IMG/VR virus record: IMGVR_UViG_2858943916_000002
Coordinates: 26,186-90,185 of that record
DNA from: a virus
Taxonomy: Duplodnaviria > Caudoviricetes
Length of the DNA stretch: 64,000 nucleotides
Strand: one strand, 5' to 3'
Each line of letters starts with the position of its first letter. Position 1 is the stretch's first letter. The position numbers were made by a program, and so were the translations under genes. The notes below the pieces were generated by a model, which was not told the DNA's origin, did no database searches, and saw only the letters and a program-made list of their open reading frames with translations. Of the stretch, positions 1,837 to 24,508 are shown piece after piece.

Positions 1837-1903
1837 ACCAATATGTTGCCAATAAACACAGAAGGCGCTAAACGGGTAACTCGACTAATAATGGGAGACG
1901 ACA

Positions 1904-2125: not shown

Positions 2126-2134
2126 AGCCTTGCG

Positions 2135-4503: not shown

Positions 4504-4530
4504 AAAACGCCCCGGTTTTTGGCCGGGGCG
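4503..4530. terminator. Hairpin between convergent cargo genes
   Basis: CGCCCCGG/CCGGGGCG stem preceded by A5 (U-tract on the minus strand). Confidence 0.65.
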
Positions 4531-4582
4531 CTTCGTCAGATCGAACTTGCTACGAGTCTGGGCGAATTTTGCACAACTTGAT

Positions 4583-5230: not shown

Positions 5231-5283
5231 CGGCTGCTCCTACTTTCAATTTGGGAGCAAATTTTAGGAACCGTTGAGCGCTG

Positions 5284-7835: not shown

Positions 7836-8155
7836 CGTCGTCCCCCAGGGGCCACAACCCTACCCTGCTCTACTACCGGTGCAACTCGTCCAATTCGTCC
7901 AGTGGCATTGCATTCACCACACATTAGCTTTTGAGGTTCACCAGAATACAACCATGCCAGGAATGGTTTGCGCACCAACTCATGGAATCGGTCGCGCGCC
8001 ATTTGATCCAGGTCGAGCTCGGCGCGCGACTCCACACCGGATACGCGACGAATGAACGCAGCGGCCTCATCGGCGCAGTGAACGCCAGCAAAAACCCAGA
8101 ACTTCGGATTTCGACTCAGCCGGACGGCCAGCCAGCAAATCGAATTGGCCTTCAT
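7832..8155 (-). CDS. Conserved phage hypothetical protein
   Basis: ATGA-coupled to the initiator; ESRAELD...FHELVRKPF motif. Confidence 0.75.
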   Translation of the reverse strand: MKANSICWLAVRLSRNPKFWVFAGVHCADEAAAFIRRVSGVESRAELDLDQMARDRFHELVRKPFLAWLYSGEPQKLMCGECNATGRIGRVAPVVEQGRVVAPGGRR

Positions 8156-11100
8156 TCGATATGCTCGAGTAAATCCCCTGCGGCAACACCCCGCTCCTCC
8201 GGCCCCTTACGGCATACACTGTTGGCTCTCACTCTGAACAGACGGGAGACGACCGACCATGAAGAAGTTAATAGTTGCGCTGAGGTATGAGCCATCCGTT
8301 GCGTTGCTCTTCGGGACGGCTGGCGTTGAATACCGCACAGATGGCGTTGTGGCTCCCGATGGGACGCAACTACCGGTGTGCCTATTACTCGTGGCATGCT
8401 CATCGGTTTCAGCCACGGACCATGGCCTTGTACGACTGGAAATTCGCCCAAGAGAGGGCGACCGAGCGCTTCCGTTCTCAGCGGTCTCAGTCCCAGCAGC
8501 ACTCCTTGCCTGGAGCATTGATTCAGGAAACGAGCGAGACTTCCCCGTGGGATTCCTACGTACCCAGGTCTAAGGCCGCGCATTGGCGTTGGGTGCAAGA
8601 GAACTTGATGCCGTAACAGATACCCGCTACTCTTGATAGTTACTTTTCTGTTACATCCAAGCGGAGTTGAAAGTGAATCAAGAGCAACACGAACTACTTG
8701 TCCAAGCTCATCAGCAAATGCTGAACCTTGCTCAAATAAACGAGGTGCAAATGAAGTTGAGCATGTCGATGCGAGAAGATCTGATGGCGGCGCAAATTGC
8801 CCTGCGCGCAGTGTGCGAAGTTCTTTCTCCCGAGGGAAAACGGCTTGCGGCTGAGCACATCCGGGAATTCGGGGAAGAGTTTCGGGATCGATTTGCAAAG
8901 GACCACCCAGACCGGGCGATTGACGGGTTCTCAATTGCAATAAATGCCTATATAGAAGGCTTGGGAGCCGCCCCCATCGCCGAGGGTGTGAAGTAGGACG
9001 CACGACAAAAGCGATTCGCCCATTCGCGCCTGCCAATCGCTGTTCAACTAGGAGATCGATTTGGATAACCCCGTCTATCGCTCCGCGATGGAAGGCCTGC
9101 AGGAAATGTATGGGCCTTTGTCTGGATGGCAAAGCAACGTAGGCGTTCGCACCAACACTTCGCCGAAGGGAAAAATCACCCTTTATCACGATCGAATCGC
9201 TTCCGGAAATAAGGCCGAGCTCGCGGTCGATCCTGAATCGATGGCCCGAGCGACCGGGCAAGGCGAAGACCAAGCCGAAGCTTTCATAAAACAACTGTCG
9301 CAGTTGACGGGGCGCGCCACCCTGACCCATGCAAGGTACAAATGGCCGCGGATCGGCTTGGCTGTGGACTCCGACGTGGAAGCAGTTTTGGAAGCTCTGC
9401 AAACTCTGTTCAATGAGGTGGCCTCGGACGCCCTCTCTTCGGATCCGTCGCCCAGCTACTGGTGGGTGAGCCACAACCAAATGCATCGCCGAGAGCTCAG
9501 CGGCGGCTACATCTGGTGTCCCCAGACCAAGAAAGGCGGCGGGGCGAGAGAAACCTGGACGAACGTATCTCGCGTGCGACGGGGAGACATCGTCTTTTCC
9601 TACGCAAAAACGAAGCTCCAAGCTGTTGGCGTTGCGCTTGGCGATGCACAGGAGGCAAGTGCTCCCAGCGAGGCGTATCACTCGTGGAACGATGCTGGAT
9701 GGCGCGTGACAATCCAGTGGGAATCCCTTGGATCCCCGTTGTCTCCCAAAGAGCATTGGGACGAAATCGGCGACCTTTTCCCTGCTGTCCATTCGCCACT
9801 GCGCGAGGATGGCGGCGGAAACATGACATACCTGGCGGCGTTGAGCGTGCCTCTGGGTTTGAAGCTGCTGGACCTGATCGGCATGACGGACGACGACGCC
9901 CTCGCGAACGTTGATCGGGAGATGGTCAAGGTGTCTGGCGTCGATAAGACCGAGGTTGAGCGGGTCTACCAAGCGCGTATAGGCCAAGGCACATATAGAA
10001 AGAACGTCATGTCCGTCGAACGCTACTGCCGCGTAACGGGTGTCAGCAATGTGGATCTGCTCATCGCGAGCCACATCAGGCCGTGGCGTCAAAGCTCGAA
10101 CCAACAACGCCTCGACGGCAACAATGGCCTGCTTCTCTCGCCTCACGTCGATAAGTTGTTCGACTCGGCCTGGATATCGTTTTCCGATCAGGGAGAGATC
10201 CTGGTTGCCAGCGGAGAGGTCAGAGAGGTGCTCATCGCCTGGGGCATTGACCCAGACATGAACGTAGGGCAATTCAATGAGGACCAAGAAAAATACTTGG
10301 CCTACCATCGAGACGTCCTTTTCTCGGAAAAGGCTAAGCAACCAGAAGAATGAGCGATCGGCCTCAATCGCAATCAGAAGAATCCACAAAGCACCTTGGA
10401 TTGAACCTGGCTGAGTTCGTACGTAATCCCACCAACCTTCACTAGACTCCCTGCAGGGAGCTTCCACATACGCAGCGATTAATCGGGAGATTTGGTCAGA
10501 ATGGCCCTCTACTTTTTGAGCTACGACTTGCGCAAATCCCGCAACTACCAACCGCTGTACGATGAACTGGCAAAGCTCGATGCCACTCGGGTCCTGGAAT
10601 CCCTTTGGGCGTTCAAACTCGCCGACACCAATTGCACATACGTTCGGGACTATTTCCGTCAATTTATCGATGCAGACGATGGGTTGATCGTGACCCAAGC
10701 TGTCGACTGGGCAACTTGGAACACGGATAAAGCCCCACCCAACACATAAGTCACGCCGTGCAGGAGGTAGCACCGCGCCCTCCTCCTGCCGGTCTAACGC
10801 CCGCGCCGCCTGTTCTAGATCAAGATGCGCATACTCAACTGGCGCCAATTTGACTTGGTCGGACACGTCGGGACGAATCCGCAACCTAGAATTGCCAACC
10901 AATTTGGCGGCCAGTTCCAGCCATATATGATCGGGATTCCCCAACCCCAACCATATGTGGAAGGAACTGACCATGGACCCGCAAGTAAGAGGACAATTGG
11001 CGACAATCACCTTCGCGCTTGGCAAACTCATCCGCTCGACCAGCCGTACCGCCGAACAGAGGCAAGACGAGGTGGAGCGGCTGCGGAGCTGGGCGGACCA

Positions 11101-11211
11101 CCAGCTCAAAGAGGCATATCGCGCGGGCGCAGATTCTGCCGGCCTCACGCCGGAGCAACAAGCCTTCCTGTCAGGAGTCCACGACACCGTAGACCAGTTG
11201 GCATGGCTCAT
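8152..11211 (-). CDS. 1019-codon antisense bridge ORF across five plus-strand cargo genes
   Basis: Stop-free in the ORF track; ATGA overlaps at both ends (11208-11211, 8152-8155); product has no recognisable motifs. Confidence 0.35.
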   Translation of the reverse strand: MSHANWSTVSWTPDRKACCSGVRPAESAPARYASLSWWSAQLRSRSTSSCLCSAVRLVERMSLPSAKVIVANCPLTCGSMVSSFHIWLGLGNPDHIWLELAAKLVGNSRLRIRPDVSDQVKLAPVEYAHLDLEQAARALDRQEEGAVLPPARRDLCVGWGFIRVPSCPVDSLGHDQPIVCIDKLTEIVPNVCAIGVGEFERPKGFQDPSGIELCQFIVQRLVVAGFAQVVAQKVEGHSDQISRLIAAYVEAPCRESSEGWWDYVRTQPGSIQGALWILLIAIEADRSFFWLLSLFREKDVSMVGQVFFLVLIELPYVHVWVNAPGDEHLSDLSAGNQDLSLIGKRYPGRVEQLIDVRREKQAIVAVEALLVRALTPRPDVARDEQIHIADTRYAAVAFDGHDVLSICALAYTRLVDPLNLGLIDARHLDHLPINVREGVVVRHADQVQQLQTQRHAQRRQVCHVSAAILAQWRMDSREKVADFVPMLFGRQRGSKGFPLDCHAPSSIVPRVIRLAGSTCLLCIAKRNANSLELRFCVGKDDVSPSHARYVRPGFSRPAAFLGLGTPDVAAAELSAMHLVVAHPPVAGRRIRREGVRGHLIEQSLQSFQNCFHVGVHSQADPRPFVPCMGQGGAPRQLRQLFYESFGLVFALPGRSGHRFRIDRELGLISGSDSIVIKGDFSLRRSVGANAYVALPSRQRPIHFLQAFHRGAIDGVIQIDLLVEQRLAGANGRIAFVVRPTSHPRRWGRLPSLLYRHLLQLRTRQSPGLGGPLQIDPETLPRIPGCAQPQAVFPREKELRTLRAGQFAPPSDLLASTCSTSFAPRLFEQGSAFADELGQVVRVALDSLSTPLGCNRKVTIKSSGYLLRHQVLLHPTPMRGLRPGYVGIPRGSLARFLNQCSRQGVLLGLRPLRTEALGRPLLGEFPVVQGHGPWLKPMSMPRVIGTPVVASHREPQRHLCGIQRQPSRRATQRMAHTSAQLLTSSWSVVSRLFRVRANSVCRKGPEERGVAAGDLLEHIE
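8259..8573 (+). CDS. Hypothetical protein (cargo)
   Basis: 104-aa ORF with GGGAG upstream. Confidence 0.6.
   Translation: MKKLIVALRYEPSVALLFGTAGVEYRTDGVVAPDGTQLPVCLLLVACSSVSATDHGLVRLEIRPREGDRALPFSAVSVPAALLAWSIDSGNERDFPVGFLRTQV
8667..8996 (+). CDS. Hypothetical helical/coiled-coil protein (cargo)
   Basis: GGAG SD (GTG 8673 is an alternative start); Q/E-rich helical pattern. Confidence 0.6.
   Translation: MKVNQEQHELLVQAHQQMLNLAQINEVQMKLSMSMREDLMAAQIALRAVCEVLSPEGKRLAAEHIREFGEEFRDRFAKDHPDRAIDGFSIAINAYIEGLGAAPIAEGVK
9061..10353 (+). CDS. EVE/PUA-like plus HNH endonuclease (modification-dependent restriction, VcaM4I-like) with an extra N-terminal domain
   Basis: YWWVS..Q....E..GGYIW.P and GDIVFS (EVE-like); R.GQG.YR, CRVTG, LIASHIRPW, RLDG.NGLLL.PH.D.LFD (HNH); TTG start with AGGAG. 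Confidence 0.82.
   Translation: MDNPVYRSAMEGLQEMYGPLSGWQSNVGVRTNTSPKGKITLYHDRIASGNKAELAVDPESMARATGQGEDQAEAFIKQLSQLTGRATLTHARYKWPRIGLAVDSDVEAVLEALQTLFNEVASDALSSDPSPSYWWVSHNQMHRRELSGGYIWCPQTKKGGGARETWTNVSRVRRGDIVFSYAKTKLQAVGVALGDAQEASAPSEAYHSWNDAGWRVTIQWESLGSPLSPKEHWDEIGDLFPAVHSPLREDGGGNMTYLAALSVPLGLKLLDLIGMTDDDALANVDREMVKVSGVDKTEVERVYQARIGQGTYRKNVMSVERYCRVTGVSNVDLLIASHIRPWRQSSNQQRLDGNNGLLLSPHVDKLFDSAWISFSDQGEILVASGEVREVLIAWGIDPDMNVGQFNEDQEKYLAYHRDVLFSEKAKQPEE
10501..10749 (+). CDS. Stand-alone Cas2/VapD-like small protein
   Basis: N-terminal strand YFLSYDL with an acidic D, Y..L..EL helix, ES.W, D.DD.L; 82 aa; no array nearby. Confidence 0.6.
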   Translation: MALYFLSYDLRKSRNYQPLYDELAKLDATRVLESLWAFKLADTNCTYVRDYFRQFIDADDGLIVTQAVDWATWNTDKAPPNT

Positions 11212-11293
11212 CGACTCCCCCGTTTACCCTCAGGGCCAAACGAGCGGTACATCCGCTCCGCGCAACGACGATCCCAGTCCTCCTGATCTCTGA
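10973..11293 (+). CDS. Hypothetical helical protein (cargo)
   Basis: SD GGAAGGA before ATG 10973 (MDPQVRG...). Confidence 0.65.
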   Translation: MDPQVRGQLATITFALGKLIRSTSRTAEQRQDEVERLRSWADHQLKEAYRAGADSAGLTPEQQAFLSGVHDTVDQLAWLIDSPVYPQGQTSGTSAPRNDDPSPPDL

Positions 11294-11363
11294 CGTCGCG
11301 GGTGTATCGGCGCAGCGCGGGCGTAATTAACCAGAGCAAGGCGCGGGCATACAGTTCACGCAT
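11208..11363 (-). CDS. 51-aa phage protein MRELYARALLWLITPALRR...
   Basis: Translated manually; 8-nt overlap with the upstream stop and ATGA overlap with the 1019-codon ORF. Confidence 0.6.
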   Translation of the reverse strand: MRELYARALLWLITPALRRYTRDVRDQEDWDRRCAERMYRSFGPEGKRGSR

Positions 11364-11712
11364 GGCAGCCCCCACTCGCGTCGGTATCTGGCGACTGCTC
11401 TTTGAACTTGCGCTCCCAGCCGATCACGAGGTAGCCAAACGGTCGGCTCCACTCCGTCACACCGGCTGGCGGGACCGCGCCAGGAATGATCTCGGCCAAC
11501 TCATATGTGAACCGCCCTGCGACATCGCCAACGGGTCGAAAGGTGGCATAGCCAATGTGGTTGCCGGCGCCATCACGTAGGCGCATGCCCAAGAGCGTCG
11601 GAGCTTCAGGGCGCATTTTTGGCCCCTCAAGCACCAGTCGAACGCCACCGCGGCCCGCAGGCTCGAGCCAGGCGTTGATATCGAGGTCAGCGTAGGTTCG
11701 GAATTCACGCAT
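11356..11712 (-). CDS. Hypothetical phage protein (MREFRTY...)
   Basis: Strong SD AAGGAG before ATG 11712. Confidence 0.65.
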   Translation of the reverse strand: MREFRTYADLDINAWLEPAGRGGVRLVLEGPKMRPEAPTLLGMRLRDGAGNHIGYATFRPVGDVAGRFTYELAEIIPGAVPPAGVTEWSRPFGYLVIGWERKFKEQSPDTDASGGCHA

Positions 11713-11968
11713 TGGAGGCTCCTTGCTGCGAATGGGCGCCCTGCCCCTTCCCCTTAAACTGGCTGCTCTCACACAAACCATCCTTGGGAAAGGAGCTGGG
11801 CATGGAAAAAACGGCGCGGCAGCAGTTCGACGACCTGCTGAAGGAATCGCACTTCTTCAACGATTCGATCAACACGGCAAAGCGAGCCGCTGGATACGCG
11901 GCCGGGCAAATCCTCGGCGCCCTCATCGAAGGGGATGTCACCATGTACGAAAAGCTCAAGCGACTCAT
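11705..11968 (-). CDS. Antisense bridge ORF B across cargo 11802..12143
   Basis: ATGA start overlap at 11965-11968 and ATGCGTGA end overlap at 11705-11712. Confidence 0.4.
   Translation of the reverse strand: MSRLSFSYMVTSPSMRAPRICPAAYPAARFAVLIESLKKCDSFSRSSNCCRAVFSMPSSFPKDGLCESSQFKGKGQGAHSQQGASNA
11733..11806 (+). promoter_or_regulatory. 74-bp cargo promoter/RBS element shared with prophage 2 (54521..54594)
   Basis: 67/74 identical by manual alignment; TAAACT -10-like hexamer, AAAGG(A/G)G SD and ATG. Confidence 0.65.
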
Positions 11969-12143
11969 GGCCGAAGACTTCCAGCGAGACTCGGACCAAG
12001 GCCCGAGCCTGGACAGTGCAGCTCGGCTGGTGCTCCATGGAATTCAGCAGGGACTCGATTCGGTTGCGCGTCCAAGCGCGCGGCTGCAGCAGACGCGGCA
12101 GCGTTCGGCCGCGCGGTCGCCGGGGAACCCAGCCGCCGACTGA
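11802..12143 (+). CDS. Hypothetical protein (cargo)
   Basis: Starts at the ATG of the shared element (MEKTARQQF...). Confidence 0.65.
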   Translation: MEKTARQQFDDLLKESHFFNDSINTAKRAAGYAAGQILGALIEGDVTMYEKLKRLMAEDFQRDSDQGPSLDSAARLVLHGIQQGLDSVARPSARLQQTRQRSAARSPGNPAAD

Positions 12144-12243
12144 TCGCTACCATCACCAGCGCACGTTGCATGGCGCGCCTGATCTGCGGCGGCCCGAAAG
12201 CCTTGGCGCCCTTCTCGCGCCCATATCCAGCCCGATTACGCAT
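11965..12243 (-). CDS. Post-cro ORF A / antisense bridge
   Basis: ATGCGTAA overlap with the cro stop; stop overlaps the ORF B start. Confidence 0.45.
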   Translation of the reverse strand: MRNRAGYGREKGAKAFGPPQIRRAMQRALVMVAISRRLGSPATARPNAAASAAAARLDAQPNRVPAEFHGAPAELHCPGSGLGPSLAGSLRP

Positions 12244-12523
12244 GGCTTGGCTCCTGCGGCGCGGCCGCGGCCAGCTCCGGCCAGAGACGCCCGTAGTCAT
12301 TGGGCCGCAAGTCCTGGCGGCGGCATTCGCCATCGGTGATCAATTCAATGTCCGCAGCGATAAGGCCGGCGAGCTTATAGCCGTAAGCGACCTGGCGGAG
12401 GTATCCCACCGACGTGCCACGTTGGCGACAGCGTGCCTGCGCTTCCAGCTTGGGGGTCTTCCTCAACCACTGGAGCAAAGGCTCCACTGGCACTCTTGTT
12501 CGGGATAAGGGTTGTTGACTCAT
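12236..12523 (-). CDS. cro: Cro-like transcriptional regulator (YdaS-type)
   Basis: GTSVGYLRQVAYG HTH, ...DLRP.D...WPEL tail, divergent from the repressor. Confidence 0.85.
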   Translation of the reverse strand: MSQQPLSRTRVPVEPLLQWLRKTPKLEAQARCRQRGTSVGYLRQVAYGYKLAGLIAADIELITDGECRRQDLRPNDYGRLWPELAAAAPQEPSHA

Positions 12524-12532
12524 CCTAAAACA

Positions 12533-12594
12533 TTACCGCAGGGTAATTATTTTGACAAGAAAAATTTACCCCTGGGTTGTTTACCTGCGGGTAG
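12533..12594. promoter_or_regulatory. OR operators of prophage 1 (three TTACC-N4-GGTAA sites)
   Basis: ttaccgcagggtaa 12533, ttacccctgggttg 12566, ttacctgcgggtag 12581; TTGACA at 12552. Confidence 0.8.
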
Positions 12595-12616
12595 CTGTCA
12601 GGCAACACTTCACACC

Positions 12617-12994
12617 ATGGAAATTGACGATATCTACGCAGTCCGCCTTCAGCGCTTTCGGACCCTGATGGACGACCGGTTCGGCGGCAAACAAGCCGCG
12701 ATCGCTACTGCGGTTGGCAAGCCAGCCAACTATGTTTCCCGCATCATCAGCGGGAATAAAAAGCTGGGCGAAGAAATCGTCCGGGAATTCGAGACATCCC
12801 TGGACCTTCCCGCGTATTGGTTTGACGGGCTAACCGATACAACGGCATGGCCCTTCCCTAGCGTCAGCCGAGCGGCGTATGAGTCGCTTACGCCCGAACA
12901 ACGCCGTGGCATCGAACAATGGGTTGCTAGGCAAGTGGAAGCATTCGGCGACACGCACACGCCGGGCGCGGGTAACTCCAAAAAGAGCGCCTAG
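12617..12994 (+). CDS. cI: CI-like repressor, HTH only (125 aa, no S24 peptidase domain)
   Basis: RLQRFRTL...KQAAIATAVGKPANYVSRII...REFE..L.LP.YWFD; divergent from cro. Confidence 0.8.
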   Translation: MEIDDIYAVRLQRFRTLMDDRFGGKQAAIATAVGKPANYVSRIISGNKKLGEEIVREFETSLDLPAYWFDGLTDTTAWPFPSVSRAAYESLTPEQRRGIEQWVARQVEAFGDTHTPGAGNSKKSA

Positions 12995-13022
12995 GCGTCG
13001 ACCGACGGCTGCATCAACGACT

Positions 13023-13310
13023 TCAGTCTACGTAGATCGGTTCCCCTGCAAGGGTAGGCTCGCGCTGCTGCGCAGCCGCGTCCTGAATTGCGTACCGCAA
13101 TTGAACGATCTCCCTGCGCGTCAGAAAATCTGGCATCCCAATCGTGGCCAACAGCGCCAACGGGCCGAGCACCACTCCCCATAAGAACCAGCACGCTCCG
13201 CATGCCCCTTTGGCATTGGCGATGTGATGCGCCAGGAATGCTGAAACGAACCAGGAGGCCACCAATAGGATGGCCCAGATCGAAGTAAGCAGAAACGCCA
13301 ACACCGTCAT
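13023..13310 (-). CDS. Small membrane protein in the immunity region
   Basis: Two hydrophobic segments, WFLWGVVLGPLALL; GGAGAG SD. Confidence 0.65.
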   Translation of the reverse strand: MTVLAFLLTSIWAILLVASWFVSAFLAHHIANAKGACGACWFLWGVVLGPLALLATIGMPDFLTRREIVQLRYAIQDAAAQQREPTLAGEPIYVD

Positions 13311-13426
13311 CTCACTCTCCTTGGAAGCTGAACCGCCAATGGGGAGCTAATCGTAACAGATTGATTCTTAAATCTCGTTCTATCTCCTAGACGCGGAAAG
13401 GGTCCTACTTTCGCTTCCCGCCAAGA

Positions 13427-13465
13427 TTACCTACAGGTATTCCTATAATATTTACCTACAGGTAA
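13427..13465. promoter_or_regulatory. OL operators / PL of prophage 1
   Basis: ttacctacaggtat 13427 and ttacctacaggtaa 13452 flanking TATAAT. Confidence 0.8.
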
Positions 13466-13482
13466 TTTTTTAGGAGACCACC

Positions 13483-13830
13483 ATGGAAGTTACCCAAACC
13501 GTCAGCGCATGGCTGACGCCCACCAGCCTGACCTCGCCCGACGAGATCACCGATCCGAACAAGGTCCGCCTCGGCGACCTGTCCTACACCAACCTGGACA
13601 TGACCGAGTGCGGCTACACGCTGATCGGCAAGGCCCGCATCACCCTGGCACTGCCTGACCGCGAACGACTGATCGATTCCAAGGTGGCGTCGATGCGAGC
13701 GGAAGTGAAGAAGATCCGCGCCGAGGCCGAAGCGAAGGCCTGCCACATCGAAAACCAGATCAGCAACCTGCTGGCGATCGAGCTCAGCCCGGCGCCGGCA
13801 TCTGAATCTGACCGCACCGAGGGGAACTGA
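13483..13830 (+). CDS. Phage hypothetical protein, first early-left gene
   Basis: GGAGACCACCATG start; C-terminal coiled coil. Confidence 0.75.
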   Translation: MEVTQTVSAWLTPTSLTSPDEITDPNKVRLGDLSYTNLDMTECGYTLIGKARITLALPDRERLIDSKVASMRAEVKKIRAEAEAKACHIENQISNLLAIELSPAPASESDRTEGN

Positions 13831-13831
13831 C

Positions 13832-14209
13832 ATGTCGAACATGTCTATTCCTACCCCATGCGGCACGGCCGCGATCCTTCGCCCCTACAACGACGAGGAA
13901 CGCCGCGCAGAGCTGATGCAAGACCTTGGCGGCGACGTGCATTTGGCGCTGTGCCGCGATCAGTTGATCCACCGCGAATACGACTTCAGCCAGCGCGCCG
14001 CCGAAGCGCTCTACGCCGCGACCGAAGGCAATCAGCTGGCCGAGGACGCATTCGCACTGGTGGTGCGCTCGGCCGTGGCACGGGATCCGCTGGCGGTGGT
14101 GGGGCTTCTCTTCCGCCAGTGGCTTGACCTGGCGGTCCGGCAACTGACCGCGGATCTTGCGGACCGGTGCGAAGACGGCCAGCGCGTGACCTTCGGGGCC
14201 CGCCAATGA
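13832..14209 (+). CDS. Phage hypothetical protein
   Basis: Tightly packed in the PL operon. Confidence 0.7.
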   Translation: MSNMSIPTPCGTAAILRPYNDEERRAELMQDLGGDVHLALCRDQLIHREYDFSQRAAEALYAATEGNQLAEDAFALVVRSAVARDPLAVVGLLFRQWLDLAVRQLTADLADRCEDGQRVTFGARQ

Positions 14210-14307
14210 CCGCCCTGCTCCTCTTCATCCTGGGTGGCCTGTGCGCCGCCTATCCCCTGGGCCTGCTCGGGGATGCCTGGATGGCCTACCGGCGGAGGTC
14301 TGCATGA
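14206..14307 (+). CDS. 33-aa hydrophobic microprotein (homolog of 58977..59078)
   Basis: MTALLLFILGGLCAAYPLGLLGDAWMAYRRRSA; ATGA overlaps at both ends. Confidence 0.65.
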   Translation: MTALLLFILGGLCAAYPLGLLGDAWMAYRRRSA

Positions 14308-14501
14308 TCCGCCGGCTGCGCAACCTCTGGCACCGCGCCCGCGTTTCCGGCCGAGACCTGGACTTCGCCGGCGTCGCCGCGATCTTCGCCGGCGCGGTGG
14401 TGCTGCTGGCCAGCGGCATGGTCGGCCCGACGCGCGACGCCCACTCCCCCACTCCCACCGCCCATGACGGGCGCCCGACGGCATACGCCGCGAAGGACTG
14501 A
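14304..14501 (+). CDS. Small single-TM phage protein (homolog of 59490..59657)
   Basis: MIRRL...TM...GPT.DA shared with the prophage 2 copy. Confidence 0.65.
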   Translation: MIRRLRNLWHRARVSGRDLDFAGVAAIFAGAVVLLASGMVGPTRDAHSPTPTAHDGRPTAYAAKD

Positions 14502-14503
14502 TC

Positions 14504-15481
14504 GTGAACGCTATTTCTGAACCTATCGCCCTGGATCGCACACGCTTCCTCGGCGGCACCGACATGGCCGCGCTGTACGGCGTCAGCAAGTGGAAGACTC
14601 CCCTGCAGGTGTGGGCCGAAAAGACCCGCCGTGATGCCTACCGCGAAGACGACCCGGCCAAGACGAAGGTGCTCAACCGCGGCAAGCGCCTTGAACCGGT
14701 CGTGGTGGCCATGCTGCGCGAGGACTACGGCCTGGACGTTGTCGCCGTGAACGAACGCTACACGCACCCCGACCACACCTTCCTGTCGGTCGAGATCGAC
14801 TTCGAGTGGCGCGTCACCGAGCAGGCCCTGGCGGCATTCCCCTGGCTCGCTCCCCTTGAGCTGGGCTCGATCCAGAACGGCGAGGTCAAGACCGTGCATC
14901 CGTTCGTCGCCCACGAGTGGGGCGACATGGGAACCGACGACGTGCCGATTCACTATGCGGCGCAGTCCATGACCGGCTTGGCCGTCACCGGCCGCGACGT
15001 GTGCCTCTACGCCACGCTGGTAGGCGTGGATGACCTGACCTTCTACGCGGTGCGCCGCGACCAGGAGACGATCGACGCGATGGTCGCCAAGGCCGTGGAC
15101 TTCTGGACCAACCACGTCCTGACCGACATCCCACCCAATCCCGAAACGTTCGACGACCTGAAGTTTCTCTACGCCCGCGACAACGGCCAAGCGATCGAGG
15201 CAACCGACGAGATCCTGGCCCAGCTCGCCGAGTTTCGCGAGCTCAGCGACCAGGCCAAGCGCATCGAGGAACGCCGCGACGAGCTCAAGTTCGGCATCCA
15301 GACGTTTATGGAGCCCAACGCCATTCTGACGGCCAAGGGCGGGCCGGTGGCCACCTGGAAAAGCCAGTCCGCCAGCCGCCTGGACGGCAAGGCCCTGGCG
15401 CTGGCTCGCCCCGATATCGCCGCCGCCTACCGCACCACATCCGAAACCCGAGTCTTCCGCCTGAAAGGAGCGAAGAAATGA
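14504..15481 (+). CDS. YqaJ/lambda-exonuclease-family recombinase nuclease
   Basis: R..FLGGTD.AA..G.SKW.TP, GKRLEP, E.KT, Y.AQ motifs. Confidence 0.88.
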   Translation: MNAISEPIALDRTRFLGGTDMAALYGVSKWKTPLQVWAEKTRRDAYREDDPAKTKVLNRGKRLEPVVVAMLREDYGLDVVAVNERYTHPDHTFLSVEIDFEWRVTEQALAAFPWLAPLELGSIQNGEVKTVHPFVAHEWGDMGTDDVPIHYAAQSMTGLAVTGRDVCLYATLVGVDDLTFYAVRRDQETIDAMVAKAVDFWTNHVLTDIPPNPETFDDLKFLYARDNGQAIEATDEILAQLAEFRELSDQAKRIEERRDELKFGIQTFMEPNAILTAKGGPVATWKSQSASRLDGKALALARPDIAAAYRTTSETRVFRLKGAKK

Positions 15482-16500
15482 GCGCATCCAAATTGAAAGC
15501 CGTGGCCACAGGCCAAGCACAGTCCCAACAACTGGCCAGCATGAAACCGAAGGACCAGATCGCCCACCTGCTGGAAAAGCGCAAGGGCGAGATCCAGAAG
15601 ATGCTGCCCAAGCACCTTTCCGCTGATCGCCTGCTCAAGGTCGCGCAGATCGCCGCCACCACCACGCCGGCCCTGGCCGAATGCGACATCCCGTCGCTGG
15701 TGGGCGCCATCGGTCAGTGCGCGCAGATGGGATTGGAGCCCAATACCGTCCTCGGCCATGCCTACCTCGTCCCGTTCAACACCAAGCGCAAGGACGCCGG
15801 CGGCAATGAGCGCTGGGTGAAGTCGGTGCAGGTGATCGTTGGCTACAAGGGCCTGATCGACCTGGCCCGCCGCTCCGGCCAGATCGTGAGCATCGCCGCC
15901 CACGAAGTCTGCGAGAACGACACCTTCGACCTGGTGTATGGCCTGGACGAGAAACTGGAGCACCGGCCGGCCATGGGCGAACGTGGCGCCGTCACCGGCT
16001 TCTATGCCGTCGCGAAGCTCGTAGGCGGCGGCCATGCCTTCGAATTCATGAGCCTGTACCTGATTGACCAGATCAAAGCGGCAACGCAAAGCAAGGGCGC
16101 CTACGGCCCCTGGAAGGACAACTTCGTGGAGATGGGCCGCAAGACCGTGATTCGCCGGCTGGCCAAGTACCTGCCGCTGTCCATCGAATTCCAGAAGGCG
16201 ACGGCCCTCGACGAAATGGCCAGCAGCGGCCGCGACCAGCACCTGGACGACAACACGCTCGACGGCGATTTCATCTTCGCCCAACCCGAGCCTGGGGCCG
16301 ACCAGGCAGAGGCAGGCGATGGCGCGCCGCAACAGCTTGCCTATGACCCGGCGCCCGTGCTGGCGCAGATCGCCAGCGCCACGAACATCGACGCCCTGGA
16401 CCTCGTCGCCGACGGTTTCCGCGACGCGCCGGACGAGCACTACGACGCGCTCAAGAAGGCCTACGACGCCCGCCGAGCGGCGCTGGATCCGGCCGCTTAG
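15478..16500 (+). CDS. recT: RecT single-strand annealing protein
   Basis: LPKHLS.DR, AQMGLEPN..LG.AYLVPF, IVGYKGLIDLARRSG, M.RKTVIRRL.KYLP. Confidence 0.92.
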   Translation: MSASKLKAVATGQAQSQQLASMKPKDQIAHLLEKRKGEIQKMLPKHLSADRLLKVAQIAATTTPALAECDIPSLVGAIGQCAQMGLEPNTVLGHAYLVPFNTKRKDAGGNERWVKSVQVIVGYKGLIDLARRSGQIVSIAAHEVCENDTFDLVYGLDEKLEHRPAMGERGAVTGFYAVAKLVGGGHAFEFMSLYLIDQIKAATQSKGAYGPWKDNFVEMGRKTVIRRLAKYLPLSIEFQKATALDEMASSGRDQHLDDNTLDGDFIFAQPEPGADQAEAGDGAPQQLAYDPAPVLAQIASATNIDALDLVADGFRDAPDEHYDALKKAYDARRAALDPAA

Positions 16501-16593
16501 CCGTTCTCCCTGGGCGGCGCCTCACCAAATGGAGGCACCCCCTGGCGCCGCCCGCCCCACTACCCAGCGATCTCAAAACCCATAGGTGAACAC

Positions 16594-16959
16594 ATGGGAG
16601 CATTTTGCGTATACGGAATGACCGAGCAGCTCGCGAAGAAAGCCGCCGAGCGGGCTTGGCAAAAATATAAGGAATCCATGACCGCGGATGTTCGCGCGTG
16701 CCTGCGGCCATCCGACCAGGCCGACTGGATCAAGGTCAAGACGGAGTACCACCTGGCCAAGGGCAATCCTGTCCAGCTATCGGCACCGTTCGATGCACCA
16801 CAGTTCGCCCGCGAGTTCATCAAGCTCGCCGCGGCCACAGGCCGAACCTCACGGCTGTGCATCATGCAGCGCGGCCCGAAGCTCGATAAGCACGGAGCGC
16901 CCCGAATCAGCAAGGCCACCAAGCGCCCGATGATCACCTGGGTTCCCTATCCGCGATAG
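16594..16959 (+). CDS. Phage hypothetical protein
   Basis: GGTGA SD; in the PL operon. Confidence 0.65.
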   Translation: MGAFCVYGMTEQLAKKAAERAWQKYKESMTADVRACLRPSDQADWIKVKTEYHLAKGNPVQLSAPFDAPQFAREFIKLAAATGRTSRLCIMQRGPKLDKHGAPRISKATKRPMITWVPYPR

Positions 16960-16996
16960 CGCACACGACGTATCACCTATCCCTATCGGAGCCTAC

Positions 16997-17785
16997 ATGG
17001 CCAAGAAATCCAAAGACGTGTACGGCGCGGACGGCCAGAGCAATCTGCTCAACTTCGACCCCGCCAAGCTGACTCTCGTCACAGACGAATCCAGCCCCCT
17101 ATATGACAAGCGCGTGCATCTGCCCGTGAACGAGGCGCTGGCGCGGAACATCGACTATCAGGGAGTGCTGGAGCCCGTGGCGGTTTCCAAGAACCCCGAG
17201 ACGGGCGACACCGAGGTCGTGTTCGGCCGGCAGCGCGTGAAGGCCGCCGTGCTCGCCAACCAGTGGCGTCGAGAACGCGGTGTGCCGGAACGACTGATTC
17301 CCGGCATCGTCTACACGGGCAAGCGCGAGAACGCCCTGGACGCGATCGTCAGCGAGAACGAAGCCCGCACCGCTGATACGCCTCTGGGCCGCGCCGAGAA
17401 GATGCGCCAACACCTTGCCCTGGGCAAAGGTGAAGACCAGATTGCGGTCATCTACAACTGCACGATCGCCACGGTCCGCGACACGCTGGCGCTGCTGGAT
17501 AGCCCCAAGGCCGTGCAGAACGCCGTCGAGGCAGGTCTGATCACCCTGACCCATGCCAAGGCACTGGTGAAGCTCAAACCTGATGAACAGCGCGCCAAGG
17601 TGGCCGAGTTGGTCGCGGCCGGCAAGAACGCCACGCCCCACCAGCGAAGCCGCAAGCAGGCCGCAGTCATGGGCGAGCGCCCCCGCGTAAGGTCCCGCAA
17701 GCAGATCCAGGCCGCTTTGGAAACCGCGCAAGGCGACTATGCCGCAGCCCTGCGCTGGGTGCTGGGAGAGGAAGACGGCGCATGA
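16997..17785 (+). CDS. ParB-like nuclease/HTH protein
   Basis: GVLEPV.V, VVFGRQRVKA, SENEAR, HTH and LTHAKAL motifs. Confidence 0.8.
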   Translation: MAKKSKDVYGADGQSNLLNFDPAKLTLVTDESSPLYDKRVHLPVNEALARNIDYQGVLEPVAVSKNPETGDTEVVFGRQRVKAAVLANQWRRERGVPERLIPGIVYTGKRENALDAIVSENEARTADTPLGRAEKMRQHLALGKGEDQIAVIYNCTIATVRDTLALLDSPKAVQNAVEAGLITLTHAKALVKLKPDEQRAKVAELVAAGKNATPHQRSRKQAAVMGERPRVRSRKQIQAALETAQGDYAAALRWVLGEEDGA

Positions 17786-17853
17786 ATGCTTCCAAGGCGA
17801 CGAGCCCGAACAGCGAAATCCAATCCCGACAGGGCAATGGGAGCGAAGAATGA
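17782..17853 (+). CDS. 23-aa linker ORF
   Basis: ATGA overlap with the ParB-like stop and with the bridge start. Confidence 0.35.
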   Translation: MNASKATSPNSEIQSRQGNGSEE

Positions 17854-18515
17854 TAGCTAGAAAGCTAGTCGAGATTTCCGCTCAACACTCGGGCCATCCA
17901 GTCCTCGCACTGCCGTTTCAGCGCCTCCACATCGGCAATGCCGGACAGCAACACATCAGAGGAGGCGCCGTTGACAATCATCATCGCCAACCCCGACTGT
18001 GCCTGACGCGCAGCCCTAACCGCAGCCGATCGTTCGGCCTTCTGCGCCATACCTTCGAAATTCGCGCACATGGATGCGAGGAGCGACACGATCGATCCCC
18101 CAAATACTCCATCGGCTCTGTCTTGCAAGGCGATCAAGCGCGTGTGCAAGAGCGAAAACTCCGAACTCGAAGGCCTGTCTCCGGCCTCCCATTGCTTGAG
18201 AAGCGCCTGCAACTGACCGCAAATCTGGTAGCACGTGTGAGCCACGGCCCAGTTTCGCTTCACAACAGCAGCCTTGTCGTCCTTTCGTCGCTCGAAGTTC
18301 TGCCAAAGAGGAACGGCTACGGCAAACATCGCCGCCCCCACAGTGCCGAACGCCGTCATCAAATCCCACCACTTAGCTTCGGCCGACATGTCAACTTTCG
18401 TGGCGAGAGCGAACCCCAAAGCCAAGCCAATGAGGGTAAGCACTGCGCCGGCAATCAAATAAAGCGCCTTCATGCTCGTCTCCATATTTGGCCGCAATCG
18501 TATCCCAGCGGCTAA
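17850..18515 (+). CDS. Antisense bridge ORF across cargo 17865..18497
   Basis: ATGA start; its TAA overlaps the AAGGAG SD of the next ORF. Confidence 0.4.
   Translation: MIARKLVEISAQHSGHPVLALPFQRLHIGNAGQQHIRGGAVDNHHRQPRLCLTRSPNRSRSFGLLRHTFEIRAHGCEERHDRSPKYSIGSVLQGDQARVQERKLRTRRPVSGLPLLEKRLQLTANLVARVSHGPVSLHNSSLVVLSSLEVLPKRNGYGKHRRPHSAERRHQIPPLSFGRHVNFRGESEPQSQANEGKHCAGNQIKRLHARLHIWPQSYPSG
17865..18497 (-). CDS. Membrane-anchored hypothetical protein (cargo)
   Basis: Two N-terminal TM segments (WWDLMTAFGTVGAA...W) then a helical domain. Confidence 0.7.
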   Translation of the reverse strand: MRPNMETSMKALYLIAGAVLTLIGLALGFALATKVDMSAEAKWWDLMTAFGTVGAAMFAVAVPLWQNFERRKDDKAAVVKRNWAVAHTCYQICGQLQALLKQWEAGDRPSSSEFSLLHTRLIALQDRADGVFGGSIVSLLASMCANFEGMAQKAERSAAVRAARQAQSGLAMMIVNGASSDVLLSGIADVEALKRQCEDWMARVLSGNLD

Positions 18516-18526
18516 GGAGTGTCAGC

Positions 18527-18622
18527 ATGAACGACCGTCAAAGCAACGAACACGTCCAAGCGGGAATCCTGCTGCTCGACTACCTGGAGGTTAGATGCTC
18601 ACACTCACAAATGAAGAGCTGA
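18527..18622 (+). CDS. 31-aa linker ORF before xis
   Basis: AAGGAG SD; overlaps the xis start. Confidence 0.35.
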   Translation: MNDRQSNEHVQAGILLLDYLEVRCSHSQMKS

Positions 18623-18825
18623 TCGAACTGACCGGGAAGGCCAGAAAGGCTGGCCAGATCGAAGCCCTCAGATTCCTCACTATCCCGTTCAAGATTCGCC
18701 CGGATGGCACCCCTGTGGTCCTTCGGGCCGCTATGGAGGCAGCACTAGGCCATGCGCCCAAGAACCAAGGATCGACACCTCCCCGCGTGCGTGTACCAGA
18801 AGCACGGCGCATACTGGTACGTTAA
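18595..18825 (+). CDS. xis: Excisionase-like protein (DUF4224-type)
   Basis: LT.EEL.ELTG...A.Q...L....IPF..RPDG.PVV; overlaps the integrase. Confidence 0.75.
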   Translation: MLTLTNEELIELTGKARKAGQIEALRFLTIPFKIRPDGTPVVLRAAMEAALGHAPKNQGSTPPRVRVPEARRILVR

Positions 18826-19720
18826 GGGCGGGAAGTGGCGCAAGATCGGCGCCGACCTGCACAGCGCGTTGACCGAATATGCACGTATCGTCTCCGCCCC
18901 AAAGGACGGCATGCCGGCATTGATCGATGATGCCCTTCCGCTCCTGACAAAAGACGTAGCCGTCTCGACTCGCAAGCAATACGAATACTGCGCAGCTCAG
19001 CTCAAAGAGGCTTTCGTCGACTTCTATCCGAACCAGGTGCGCCACGGCGACGTGGTGGAACTGCTTGACGGCTACTCTGATCGTCGAGCCCTGGCCAACC
19101 GAATGCTGACCGTACTGAAGCTGGTCTTTCAATGGGCCTTGGACCGCGGCCGAGTAGATGCGAATCCATGCGTCAGCGTGAAGCGCTTCGTCCAGAAGCC
19201 GCGAGACCGGCTGATCACGCCCAAGGAATACGCAGCCATCTACGAAGGCTGCCCGCCTTGGCTGCAATGCGTCATGGATCTTTGCTACCTGACCGGCCAG
19301 CGCATCGGCGACGTGCTGAAAATCGAAGACAGCCACGTTCGCGACGAGGGGTTGTACTTCGAACAGCAGAAGACGAGAAAGCGCCTGGTGGTCGCGTGGA
19401 CGCCGGAATTGCGCGCTGCGGTGGAGCGTGCTCAGGAGCTGCGCGTTGCCCCGACCAGAACGCCGTACCTTCTCGGTGGCCGCGGAGGCAACCTCCGGCT
19501 CCATTCCAACGTCTGGCGCATCTTCAAGGACGCTGCGGTCAAGGCCAACGTCCCCGACGTGACCCTGCACGACTTGCGGGCAATGGCGGGCACGGATGCT
19601 GAATCCCAAGGTATCGACCCGAGCGCCCTGCTCGGCCACTCGGATCCCCGAACGACCCGGATCTACCTGCGCGACAAGCGCCCTAAGCTTGTGAAAGGAC
19701 CGACGCGAAAGGCTGTATAA
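18752..19720 (+). CDS. int: Tyrosine integrase
   Basis: Catalytic R (TGQRIGD), HxxR (LHDLRA), H and Y (LGHS...TTRIY). Confidence 0.93.
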   Translation: MRPRTKDRHLPACVYQKHGAYWYVKGGKWRKIGADLHSALTEYARIVSAPKDGMPALIDDALPLLTKDVAVSTRKQYEYCAAQLKEAFVDFYPNQVRHGDVVELLDGYSDRRALANRMLTVLKLVFQWALDRGRVDANPCVSVKRFVQKPRDRLITPKEYAAIYEGCPPWLQCVMDLCYLTGQRIGDVLKIEDSHVRDEGLYFEQQKTRKRLVVAWTPELRAAVERAQELRVAPTRTPYLLGGRGGNLRLHSNVWRIFKDAAVKANVPDVTLHDLRAMAGTDAESQGIDPSALLGHSDPRTTRIYLRDKRPKLVKGPTRKAV

Positions 19721-19732
19721 GCACACAGTCCA

Positions 19733-19830
19733 GGGCGTCGAGTTTTAGACATCTAATTGACGCCCGAGCGCAAAGCCTTTGTTTATGTGGTTCTCCGGCC
19801 TATAGATGTATTCCGTCATGCCCTGCCCCG
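19733..19830. other. Right attachment junction of prophage 1
   Basis: Immediately after int; GGGCGTC/GACGCCC inverted repeat enclosing TTAGA-CA-TCTAA; pilin-like sequence begins at 19805. Confidence 0.7.
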
Positions 19831-19855
19831 CCTGACGCTGCAAATATCCCGACAC
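19745..19855 (-). pseudogene. flp: Truncated Flp/Tad prepilin: host 5' part fused to phage sequence (36 aa)
   Basis: GGAG SD, GTG start, MSGYLQRQAG-QGMTEYI (G/-1, E+5, Y+6 Flp signature), then polar YRPENHINK... instead of the hydrophobic helix. Confidence 0.8.
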
Positions 19856-20272
19856 TGCCGTTCTCCGCTCGCGATGAATGAGGGTCACAGTGTCGAGGCT
19901 GCCGCAGGGCGCCACAATTCGCGGATACCGAGCTGGATCAAAACATCGCACCATCCGGCCGAGTCGACATCGGCCCAGGACAACGCCCAAGAAAATGTTG
20001 TAACCCCTTAATTTCCATCGGGTTTTCCCTATTGCCCAGGCCCCAGGGCGGCAGTAGATTGAAGTTGCCGGGCTGTCTGACACCCATCGCGTGCGAAGCC
20101 GGGCAGGAGCGCCTCAGACTCATCGCGAGCTGGGGCGCTCTTCCATTCCACGGTCCGCAAACAGGGACCCGGCGCGCCGGCGGCATTACAAAATCTATAC
20201 ACAGTCGCCCAATCCCCTCACAGGGCCATGGCTAGCATTGCGTCTTTCGTTGCCCGATTCGATTGACGACCT

Positions 20273-21451
20273 ATGCTTGCCTACGCCCCACAGCCCAGGG
20301 CCTCGCGCCCCGTGCAGGGCGCCGCCGTCCACAATCCCGCCATCGACGCCCTGCGTGGCCTGGCGATCCTGTGCGTCGTGCTGCTGCACGTGCAGATCCA
20401 CATCCCGCAAGAACAGAGCCTGCTGGGAAAAGTGCTGCCGCCCGCCCTCTTCAACCTCGTCTTTCGCAGCGGCTACTACGGCGTCATCATTTTTTTCGTG
20501 ATCTCGGGCTTTCTCATCACGCGCGCAGCCCTCGAGCGCTGGGGCAGCCTGGAAGCCGTCCCCTGGAAACCGTTCCTGCGACGCCGGATCGCCCGCATCT
20601 ACCCCTGCCTGGCTTTGCTGGTATTGATACTGGCCGGCCTGCACTGGGCCGAGGTCCCCGGCTTCGTCGTCGACAACACCAGCCTCGCCCGGGCTGCGGC
20701 CAGCGCGCTGGCGCTGCATCTGAATTGGCTGGAAGCCCAGGTCGGCTACCTGCCCGCGGCCTGGAACGTGTTGTGGTCGCTGTCCATCGAAGAGGCGTTC
20801 TATCTGGCGTTTCCGCTGATCTGCATGCTGGCGCTGGCGGCGGGCCGGCGCGCACTGATCGTGGCGCTGCTGCTGTTCGTGGGGCTGGGTCCCTTCGCCC
20901 GGGCTGCCTTCAGCGCCAACGAAATCTGGGCCGACCACGCCTACCTGTCCGGCATGGACGGCATCGCCATCGGCTGCCTCGCGGCCTTGTACGCCGCCTG
21001 CCCCGCCCGCTGCGCGCGGCACGGCCGCAGGCTGCTGCTTGCCGGCACCGCGCTGTTCTCACTGGTGTTCCTGTTGCGCAAGACCACCCACATGCTGGGC
21101 CTGACGGGCCTGGGGCTGAACGTCACGCTGCTAGAGATCGGCGTGGCCTGCCTGCTGATAGGCTGGAGCCGTCCGCGGCGTGCGCCACGTCCCAACGCCA
21201 TCGCCGCCGCGCTGCGCTGGGCCGGGCAAAACAGTTACGAGATCTACCTCACCCACATGTTCCCCGTGCTGCTGCTGGCGGCCGCATCGTGCCGCAATTC
21301 CGGCGGCGTCGTGTCGACCTGGTGGCGGGCGGGCGCGCTGACCGCGGCCAGCGTGCTGGCGATCCTGCTGTCGGCCATGCTGGGGGGATTGGTGGCGCGC
21401 TATTATTCGACGCCCATGCGCCACTGGCTGACCCGGCCCGCCCCACGATGA
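20273..21451 (+). CDS. Acyltransferase family 3 (OafA-like) membrane protein
   Basis: IDALRGLAIL.VVLLH, GV..FFVISGFLIT, RR..RIYP, WSLSIEE.FY, SYEIYL.H. Confidence 0.9.
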   Translation: MLAYAPQPRASRPVQGAAVHNPAIDALRGLAILCVVLLHVQIHIPQEQSLLGKVLPPALFNLVFRSGYYGVIIFFVISGFLITRAALERWGSLEAVPWKPFLRRRIARIYPCLALLVLILAGLHWAEVPGFVVDNTSLARAAASALALHLNWLEAQVGYLPAAWNVLWSLSIEEAFYLAFPLICMLALAAGRRALIVALLLFVGLGPFARAAFSANEIWADHAYLSGMDGIAIGCLAALYAACPARCARHGRRLLLAGTALFSLVFLLRKTTHMLGLTGLGLNVTLLEIGVACLLIGWSRPRRAPRPNAIAAALRWAGQNSYEIYLTHMFPVLLLAAASCRNSGGVVSTWWRAGALTAASVLAILLSAMLGGLVARYYSTPMRHWLTRPAPR

Positions 21452-24499: not shown

Positions 24500-24508
24500 A
24501 TTGTTCTT

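What the first reader, a model, noticed from the sequence alone, without database searches (positions are those of the whole stretch)
19745..19855. Prophage 1 is integrated inside a Flp/Tad pilin gene
The host side reads SD-GTG-MSGYLQRQAG/QGMTEYI, the Flp prepilin cleavage signature. Exactly where the hydrophobic helix should start, it switches to phage-derived YRPENHINKGFALGRQLDV-stop next to the integrase. Established: Tad pili mediate adhesion and serve as phage receptors in some bacteria, and some prophages act as reversible gene switches. Inference: lysogeny turns off this pilin, possibly removing a phage receptor, and excision restores it. The other junction is outside the window and could supply a replacement 5' end.
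Basis: partly seen in the sequence, partly recalled or inferred. Interest (0 to 1): 0.85.

Follow-up and report, generated by a model that had tools for sequence, protein, structure and literature searches.

The report
Prophage splits a Tad-like pilin gene
An Achromobacter prophage is inserted in the small pilin gene that heads a Tad-like pilus operon and breaks it, but the same event at the same 14-bp site was published for the related Bordetella phage PHB09, so this is a new example of a known event.

Summary
On the minus strand, SD-GTG (19855) opens 17 codons of an Flp-like prepilin (leader, Gly, then QGMTEYI). Homology to eight empty-site Achromobacter genomes stops exactly at 19805. Phage DNA then adds 19 codons and a stop, 25 bp from the integrase stop.

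In empty-site genomes the gene is an 85-aa ORF. It is the first gene of a Tad-like operon: TadG-like, TadE-like, secretin, FHA-ATPase and two T2SSF genes.

The far junction lies outside the window and outside the 90-kb contig. In six related lysogens it carries an in-frame stop and no leader, so the prepilin is not rebuilt there.

This is already published for a close relative. Bordetella phage PHB09 has an integrase 82% identical to this one. It integrates at TGACCGAGTACATC inside a B. bronchiseptica 'pilin gene' (PMC7010805). The window has TGACGGAATACATC and the same attP arms.

- All 24 relatives with integrase at 62% identity or more and readable flank sit at this motif (a further one is the free attP form); none of the 11 family-survey relatives below that do (two further 45-46% viral-contig relatives also lacked it).
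- The target gene was found in 346 of 401 sampled genomes of the family.
- The hosts keep a separate canonical flp-tadV locus.

The 'reversible switch' and 'receptor removal' ideas remain untested. The scan earlier noted analogous serine-integrase insertions in actinobacterial Tad pilin genes on other DNA.

The parts
1..19804 (.). Window part of prophage 1. It continues leftward through contig bases 1-26185, about 46 kb on the contig. The contig stops roughly 3 kb short of the far junction if the prophage is collinear with the A. ruhlandii relative.
   Evidence: Collinear 90-96% identical blocks with the A. ruhlandii LMG 1866 prophage. Terminase-like DNA at window 34-1517. No pilin 3' half and no att repeat on the contig.
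18595..18825 (+). Small DUF4224 protein, an excisionase-position gene overlapping the integrase start.
   Evidence: Pfam DUF4224, E 2.6e-14.
18752..19720 (+). Tyrosine integrase of the PHB09 type.
   Evidence: Pfam Phage_integrase, E 4.8e-16. 81.7% identical to the integrase of Bordetella phage vB_BbrS_PHB09.
19745..19804 (-). Phage (attP-derived) arm. It supplies 19 codons and the stop of the hybrid ORF.
   Evidence: No homology to empty-site genomes. Matches the first bases of the PHB09 record after its 14-bp core.
19805..19818 (-). 14-bp att core TGACGGAATACATC. It covers the last two bases of the Met codon and the T-E-Y-I codons.
   Evidence: Same position as, and 12 of 14 bases identical to, the published PHB09 site TGACCGAGTACATC.
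19805..19855 (-). Surviving 5' fragment of the Flp-like prepilin gene: GTG start, 10-residue leader ending in Gly, and the first 7 mature residues.
   Evidence: Aligned to intact 85-aa orthologues in eight Achromobacter genomes.
19745..19855 (-). 36-codon hybrid ORF (pilin 5' end plus phage tail). It is probably a non-functional remnant.
   Evidence: Read directly from the sequence.
19856..20272 (-). Host upstream region of the pilin gene: the SD just before 19855, and presumably the operon promoter.
   Evidence: Homologous to empty-site genomes. No sigma-70 consensus match was found, so the promoter is not located.
20273..21451 (+). Host acyltransferase gene, the divergent neighbour used to find empty-site genomes.
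   Evidence: Pfam Acyl_transf_3, E 2.1e-29. 78-82% identical orthologues in most Achromobacter species found (67% in A. pulmonis).

Best explanation
Prophage 1 is an ordinary temperate Achromobacter phage that carries a PHB09-type integration module (DUF4224 xis-like gene, tyrosine integrase, attP).

Its integrase recombines attP with a 14-bp core, TGAC(C/G)GA(A/G)TACAT(C/G), that encodes the M-T-E-Y-I residues just after the prepilin cleavage site. The target is an 85-aa Flp-like pilin, the first gene of a Tad-like pilus operon.

Integration separates the promoter, leader and first 7 mature residues from the rest of the pilin and from the downstream assembly genes by about 49 kb (37-50 kb in relatives). 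The int-proximal junction makes a 36-codon hybrid remnant. In relatives the far junction has an in-frame stop and no leader or Gly(-1). The pilin is therefore knocked out, and the operon behind it probably loses its promoter.

The site is most likely used because it is a very conserved, single-copy sequence across the host family, playing the role that tRNA genes play for other phages. Unlike tRNA-targeting phages, this one does not repair its target.

Shown: the position of the junction, the intact gene in empty sites, the target specificity of the integrase clade, and the non-restoring far junction in relatives.

Inferred: loss of pilus function in this strain, polarity on downstream genes, and the reason for the site choice.
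For: - Junction: homology to eight empty-site genomes starts at 19805. The intact 85-aa ORF is present in all eight.
- Operon context in L003: TadG-like, TadE-like, secretin with pilus N domain, FHA-T2SSE ATPase and two T2SSF genes.
- Published precedent: PHB09 has a 14-bp site inside a B. bronchiseptica pilin gene, and its lysogens are less adhesive, less invasive and less virulent. Integrase identity is 81.7%. The PHB09 record starts with the core plus the same arm as window 19745-19804 and ends with the arm seen at the far junctions. The B. bronchiseptica orthologue of the pilin is 79% identical and has the same motif.
- Specificity: 8 of 8 viral-contig relatives with readable flank and a host junction (L035 is instead the free attP form) and 16 of 16 genome relatives with integrase at 62% identity or more end at the GQGMTEY codons. 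None of the 11 genome-survey loci at 62% or below (43-61.7%) do. L035 shows the free attP form.
- Far junction in six lysogens: a stop lies 6-20 codons upstream. CTG or TTG replaces the Met codon. There is no Gly(-1).
- In the A. ruhlandii relative, the terminal phage gene at the far end points away from the pilin remainder.
- Target conservation: a homologue was found in 346 of 401 sampled genomes of the family, and the listed best matches are about 73-90% identical (the tally includes one unpublished genome, G385).
Against: - The far junction of this particular prophage is not on the 90-kb contig. Non-restoration is extrapolated from relatives.
- No expression or pilus data exist for this strain.
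- Two far junctions have TTG where the pilin has its third mature residue, Met. A leaderless start there cannot be strictly excluded, although no well-spaced SD is present.
- No promoter was located upstream of the pilin.
- The published phenotype of PHB09 lysogens was not tied to the pilin by a clean knockout. The authors say the knockout failed.
Confidence: 0.85

Rival explanations
1. Active lysogeny or receptor control. The prophage is a reversible switch for this pilus: integration turns piliation off (perhaps removing the phage's own receptor and blocking superinfection), and precise excision without lysis turns it on again.
For: - Integration is precise, at a short core inside the coding sequence, so precise excision would restore the gene.
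- The downstream TadG-like gene is still an open frame in 4 of 5 lysogens checked, so there is no decay.
- Tad pili are phage receptors in Caulobacter (PMC11067988).
- Unrelated serine integrases were noted by this scan in actinobacterial Tad pilin genes (these are leads, not tested here).
Against: - For PHB09 the authors report that induction always led to lysis and saw little chance of reversion.
- The prophages are full-size (37-50 kb), not the reduced int/xis-retaining remnants typical of domesticated switches.
- The receptor of these phages is unknown.
- The hosts keep a second, canonical flp-tadV locus.
- The extreme conservation of the target is enough to explain the site choice.
Confidence: 0.1
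2. The pilin is functionally rescued in this strain. Either the unseen far junction supplies a new start and leader, or a leaderless product from an internal or TTG start is assembled, so lysogeny is phenotypically neutral for the pilus.
For: - The far junction of this prophage is not available.
- TTG precedes the TEY codons in two relatives.
Against: - Six of six related far junctions have an in-frame stop shortly upstream and no Gly(-1).
- The attP left arm is conserved from PHB09 to the Achromobacter phages.
- PHB09 lysogens do show reduced adhesion.
Confidence: 0.04
3. Artefact. The junction is an assembly chimera or a degraded pseudogene region, not a site-specific integration.
For: None found.
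Against: The same base-exact junction occurs in 24 independent records, an attP form exists, and the site is experimentally published.
Confidence: 0.01

Closest known systems
Bordetella phage vB_BbrS_PHB09 integration into a B. bronchiseptica pilin gene (Chen et al. 2020, Front Cell Infect Microbiol 10:14, PMC7010805)
   Same: - The integrase is 81.7% identical.
- The 14-bp core is at the same codons (12 of 14 bases identical; the differences are synonymous).
- Both attP arms are alike.
- The target is the orthologous pilin (79% identical protein).
- The gene is disrupted.
   Different: - The host genus is Achromobacter.
- The rest of the phage is unrelated at the DNA level. Only window 18627-19704 matches PHB09, so the module is mosaic.
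- The paper calls the target simply 'pilin'. It does not describe the Flp-type motif, the Tad-like operon, the second canonical flp locus or the spread of the integrase clade.
Prophages as regulatory switches (active lysogeny): Listeria phi10403S in comK, Bacillus SPbeta in spsM and skin in sigK (own knowledge; Feiner et al. 2015 review)
   Same: A prophage sits inside a coding sequence, and precise excision would restore the gene.
   Different: There is no evidence here of non-lytic excision or of developmental control. The one experimental relative lysed on induction.
Phages that integrate into tRNA genes or gene 3' ends and rebuild the target (own knowledge; Campbell 2003, cited in PMC7010805)
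   Same: A short, highly conserved host sequence is used as attB.
   Different: The core lies near the 5' end of a protein gene, and the phage carries no replacement for the lost part.
Serine-integrase prophages and islands in actinobacterial Tad pilin genes
   Same: A mobile element splits a small Tad-operon pilin gene, and related integrases reuse the site.
   Different: The integrase family, the host phylum and the position in the gene are all different. I did not re-test those notes.

Membership tests
Flp/Fap pilin (Pfam PF04964; Tad or type IVc major pilin) | Score above the Pfam gathering threshold | tested here: not met
   15.1, 17.7 and 14.6 bits against a cut-off of 32.2 for three intact orthologues. 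Only 2 of the 120 listed homologues carry a precomputed PF04964 hit. hhalign against the host's canonical Flp gives probability 1.9%, E 0.026, although the motifs align in register.
Flp/Fap pilin (Pfam PF04964; Tad or type IVc major pilin) | Short prepilin with a leader ending in Gly, then XXXXEY (Glu5-Tyr6) and a hydrophobic helix of about 20 residues | tested here: met
   An 85-aa ORF with ...RRQ(T/A)G / QGMTEY followed by a hydrophobic run. G, Q, M, T, E and Y are invariant in 30 homologues.
Flp/Fap pilin (Pfam PF04964; Tad or type IVc major pilin) | Linked to Tad-type assembly genes | tested here: met
   Downstream in L003: Tad (TadG-like; 19.1 bits against 22.3), TadE (22.8 against 22.9), Secretin plus T2SS-T3SS_pil_N, FHA-T2SSE ATPase and two T2SSF genes. 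No TadZ/CpaE or CpaB-like gene was recognised. The 276-aa ORF has no Pfam hit.
Flp/Fap pilin (Pfam PF04964; Tad or type IVc major pilin) | A TadV/CpaA-type prepilin peptidase is available | tested here: met
   A small Peptidase_A24 frame (58-59 bits) is present in three Achromobacter genomes, but it lies next to the canonical flp gene and not in this operon. Which peptidase processes this pilin is unknown.
PHB09-type pilin-targeting integration module | Integrase orthology | tested here: met
   81.7% identity over 99% of the length.
PHB09-type pilin-targeting integration module | The same core sequence at the same codons of the orthologous gene | tested here: met
   TGACGGAATACATC against the published TGACCGAGTACATC. 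The orthologue in B. bronchiseptica has the same GQGMTEYI motif.
PHB09-type pilin-targeting integration module | Homologous attP arms | tested here: met
   The start of the PHB09 record matches window 19745-19804. Its end matches the far-junction arm of G274.
Active-lysogeny (regulatory switch) prophage | Excision without host lysis that restores the gene under defined conditions | not testable with these tools
   The only experimental relative is reported to have always lysed on induction.
Active-lysogeny (regulatory switch) prophage | The disrupted gene is restored exactly by excision | tested here: inconclusive
   The junction sequences are compatible with exact restoration. Excision products were not observed for this strain. 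An attP-form contig of a relative exists (L035).

The most novel reading that the evidence does not exclude
Targeting of Tad-type pilin genes is selected rather than incidental. Unrelated integrases (tyrosine in Alcaligenaceae; serine in actinobacteria, by earlier scan notes) have converged on these genes because silencing the pilus benefits the phage. The benefit could be removal of its own receptor or of a competitor's, or a change in host surface behaviour. In some hosts excision may act as a reversible piliation switch. A side reading: the pilin promoter fires antisense into int and xis, which would couple excision to pilus regulation.
Probability: 0.12. Interest if true: 0.7.

Novelty: new member of a known kind. 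Interest (0 to 1): 0.3.

Why it matters
Achromobacter species are opportunistic airway pathogens, and Tad-type pili are adhesion and biofilm factors. In Bordetella, a prophage of this type has been shown to lower adhesion, invasion and virulence.

The module turns out to be widespread. It was found in 16 of 401 sampled species genomes of the family and in many viral contigs, and it always lands on the same prepilin-processing codons. That makes PHB09 one representative of a clade rather than a curiosity. It also identifies the target as the major pilin of a second, poorly annotated Tad-like system that is nearly universal in the family.

The practical use is in annotation: the split gene should not be called as two hypothetical ORFs. 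The survey also gives a natural loss-of-function series for studying that pilus.

Tried and rejected
- I searched the 90-kb contig for a second att copy and for the pilin 3' half. Only chance 11-13-mers and no tblastn hit were found, so the far junction is off the contig.
- The genome search 'relatives' is not available for a virus record. I used the search for related loci and family sampling centred on A. ruhlandii instead.
- ARAGORN found no tRNA in the window, so tRNA targeting does not apply to this junction.
- The 112-aa ORF 19745-20083 was rejected as the gene. The conserved SD and start are at 19855.
- NCBIfam gave no Flp model hit, only weak pseudopilin-like noise.
- A profile search of the PDB gave only weak matches to type IV pilin N-termini, E 0.06-0.9.
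- hhalign against the canonical Flp was not significant.
- The consensus promoter and terminator scan of 19600-20300 found nothing.
- The LexA-like box at the integrase stop was checked in relatives. It is present only in the window and in the A. ruhlandii prophage, so it is not part of the conserved module.
- Literature searches for Achromobacter plus PHB09 found nothing. General searches on prophages and flp/tad pilins gave no other report of this site.
- No structure prediction or complex prediction was run, because neither would change the verdict.

Full report
**1. What is in the sequence**

The window is bases 26186-90185 of a 90,185-bp virus-record contig.

On the minus strand at 19855-19745 there is a GGAG-type SD and a GTG start. 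Then come codons for S-G-Y-L-Q-R-Q-A-G-Q-G-M-T-E-Y-I, ending at 19805. Nineteen further codons and TAA follow.

A tyrosine integrase lies at 18752-19720 on the plus strand (Pfam Phage_integrase, E 4.8e-16). It ends 25 bp from that stop. A DUF4224 xis-position gene precedes it.

**2. Host and empty sites**

The neighbouring acyltransferase identifies the host as Achromobacter.

BLASTN of window 19600-20300 against nine Achromobacter loci shows homology that begins at window 19805 in eight of them. The ninth, A. ruhlandii LMG 1866, matches through the integrase as well. It therefore carries a related prophage at the same place.

The eight empty-site genomes have an intact 85-aa ORF there. It has a short basic leader, Gly, then QGMTEY and a hydrophobic helix.

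In A. deleyi (L003) this ORF is the first gene of an operon. The genes that follow are:
- a TadG-like gene;
- a TadE-like gene;
- an unassigned 276-aa ORF;
- a secretin with the pilus N-terminal domain;
- an FHA-T2SSE ATPase;
- two T2SSF genes.

**3. Is it an Flp pilin?**

By motif (G/XXXXEY), size and gene context, yes.

By sequence statistics, no:
- Flp_Fap scores 15-18 bits against a cut-off of 32.2.
- NCBIfam has no matching model.
- hhalign against the host's canonical Flp is not significant, though the motifs align in register.
- PDB profile hits are weak type IV pilin N-termini.

Database names for the homologues are inconsistent. Most are 'hypothetical protein'; some are 'Flp family type IVb pilin', 'Flp pilus assembly pilin Flp' or 'PilA'. 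The nearest Atlas clusters are named Flp/Fap pilin.

Three Achromobacter genomes also have a canonical Flp gene (52-56 bits) next to a small TadV-like peptidase elsewhere in the genome. The interrupted gene is therefore best described as the major pilin of a second, divergent Tad-like system.

**4. The other junction**

The contig holds neither a second att copy nor the pilin 3' half. By collinearity with the A. ruhlandii prophage, the contig ends about 3 kb short of the far junction.

The far junction could be read in six related lysogens:
- A. ruhlandii;
- G274, which is also viral record G003;
- G172, G280, G205 and G132.

In all six the phage arm brings an in-frame stop 6-20 codons upstream of the TEY codons. 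There is no leader and no Gly(-1). CTG or TTG stands where the pilin has Met. The prepilin is therefore not rebuilt.

In A. ruhlandii the terminal phage gene is a low-GC AAA_21/AAA_15 ATPase. It is transcribed away from the pilin remainder. No read-through into the operon is evident. The prophages are 37-50 kb long.

**5. Known precedent**

The integrase is 81.7% identical to that of Bordetella phage vB_BbrS_PHB09.

Chen et al. 2020 (PMC7010805) showed by PCR and sequencing of 13 natural and 40 laboratory lysogens that PHB09 integrates at one 14-bp site, TGACCGAGTACATC, inside a B. bronchiseptica pilin gene. Their lysogens were less adhesive, less invasive, more serum-sensitive and attenuated in mice. 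They could not make a clean pilin knockout. They state that induction always lysed the lysogen.

The window core is TGACGGAATACATC (19818-19805). The differences from the PHB09 site are synonymous. The PHB09 record starts with the core followed by the same arm as window 19745-19804. It ends with the arm seen at the far junctions. The B. bronchiseptica orthologue of the pilin has the same motif.

Outside the integration module the two phages are unrelated at the DNA level. The module is therefore mosaic.

**6. Survey**

In IMG/VR, every integrase relative at 63% identity or more that has readable flank and a host junction ends at the GQGMTEY codons. There are eight such loci. One short contig, L035, shows the free attP form.

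In 401 sampled species genomes of the family, 26 have an integrase hit (27 loci):
- All 16 loci at 62% identity or more show the same junction.
- None of the 11 loci at 62% or below (43-61.7%) do.

The target pilin was found in 346 of the 401 genomes, and the listed best matches are about 73-90% identical. That tally includes one unpublished genome, G385. No other claim rests on it.

Mismatches between the two junction copies of the core occur at position 8 in G280 and from position 11 in A. ruhlandii. This suggests that strand exchange occurs within the first 7 bases. That is an inference.

**7. Interpretation**

The best-supported reading is ordinary site-specific lysogeny by a PHB09-type module. 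Its attB is the most conserved stretch of a near-universal, single-copy pilin gene. Integration knocks the gene out and probably cuts the downstream operon off from its promoter.

The switch and receptor ideas are not excluded, but nothing supports them directly. The only experimental relative argues against non-lytic reversion.

Earlier notes of this scan describe serine-integrase elements in actinobacterial Tad pilin genes on other DNA. That makes convergent targeting a lead worth testing. I did not re-test those notes.

**8. Verdict**

This is a new member (Achromobacter) of a published kind, and interest is modest.

Noticed in passing
L081/L082 (G274:C1:2240900-2242400 and 2277000-2278500): In the same lysogen that has a PHB09-type prophage in the pilin gene, the next gene (TadG-like) is also split by a second insertion of about 37 kb. 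That element is bounded by a 424-aa P4-type integrase (Arm-DNA-bind_3 plus Phage_integrase). So two mobile elements sit in one Tad-like operon.
   Followed up: partly
window 19713-19728: A LexA-box-like CTGT-N8-ACAG overlaps the integrase stop; an earlier scan note flagged it. An equivalent box occurs in the A. ruhlandii relative. It was not found in the other integrase relatives checked, so it is not a conserved part of the integration module.
   Followed up: partly
L027:398-1918 (A. ruhlandii prophage far end): The first gene inside the far junction is a low-GC 506-aa AAA_21/AAA_15 ATPase (AbiEii/OLD-like P-loop). It looks like a defence-type cargo gene at the prophage end. The corresponding part of the window's prophage is off the contig.
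   Followed up: no
window 19805-24050 and 24508-26486: Only about 4.2 kb of host LPS-type genes (acyltransferase, heptosyltransferase-like, GT4) separates prophage 1 from the next phage-like region. A. deleyi (L003) has 88-90% identical phage-like DNA at the corresponding place, so that second site is also reused.
   Followed up: no
window 34-1517 and 18627-19704: The prophage is mosaic. Its terminase region resembles Burkholderia phage BgManors32 (78%). Only the xis/int module resembles Bordetella phage PHB09 (76% DNA identity).
   Followed up: no
L084:260-436 (A. deleyi G302:C51): A canonical 58-aa Flp pilin with G/ITALEYG lies next to a small Peptidase_A24 gene. Achromobacter therefore has two Tad-type systems, and only the divergent one is the phage target.
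   Followed up: partly
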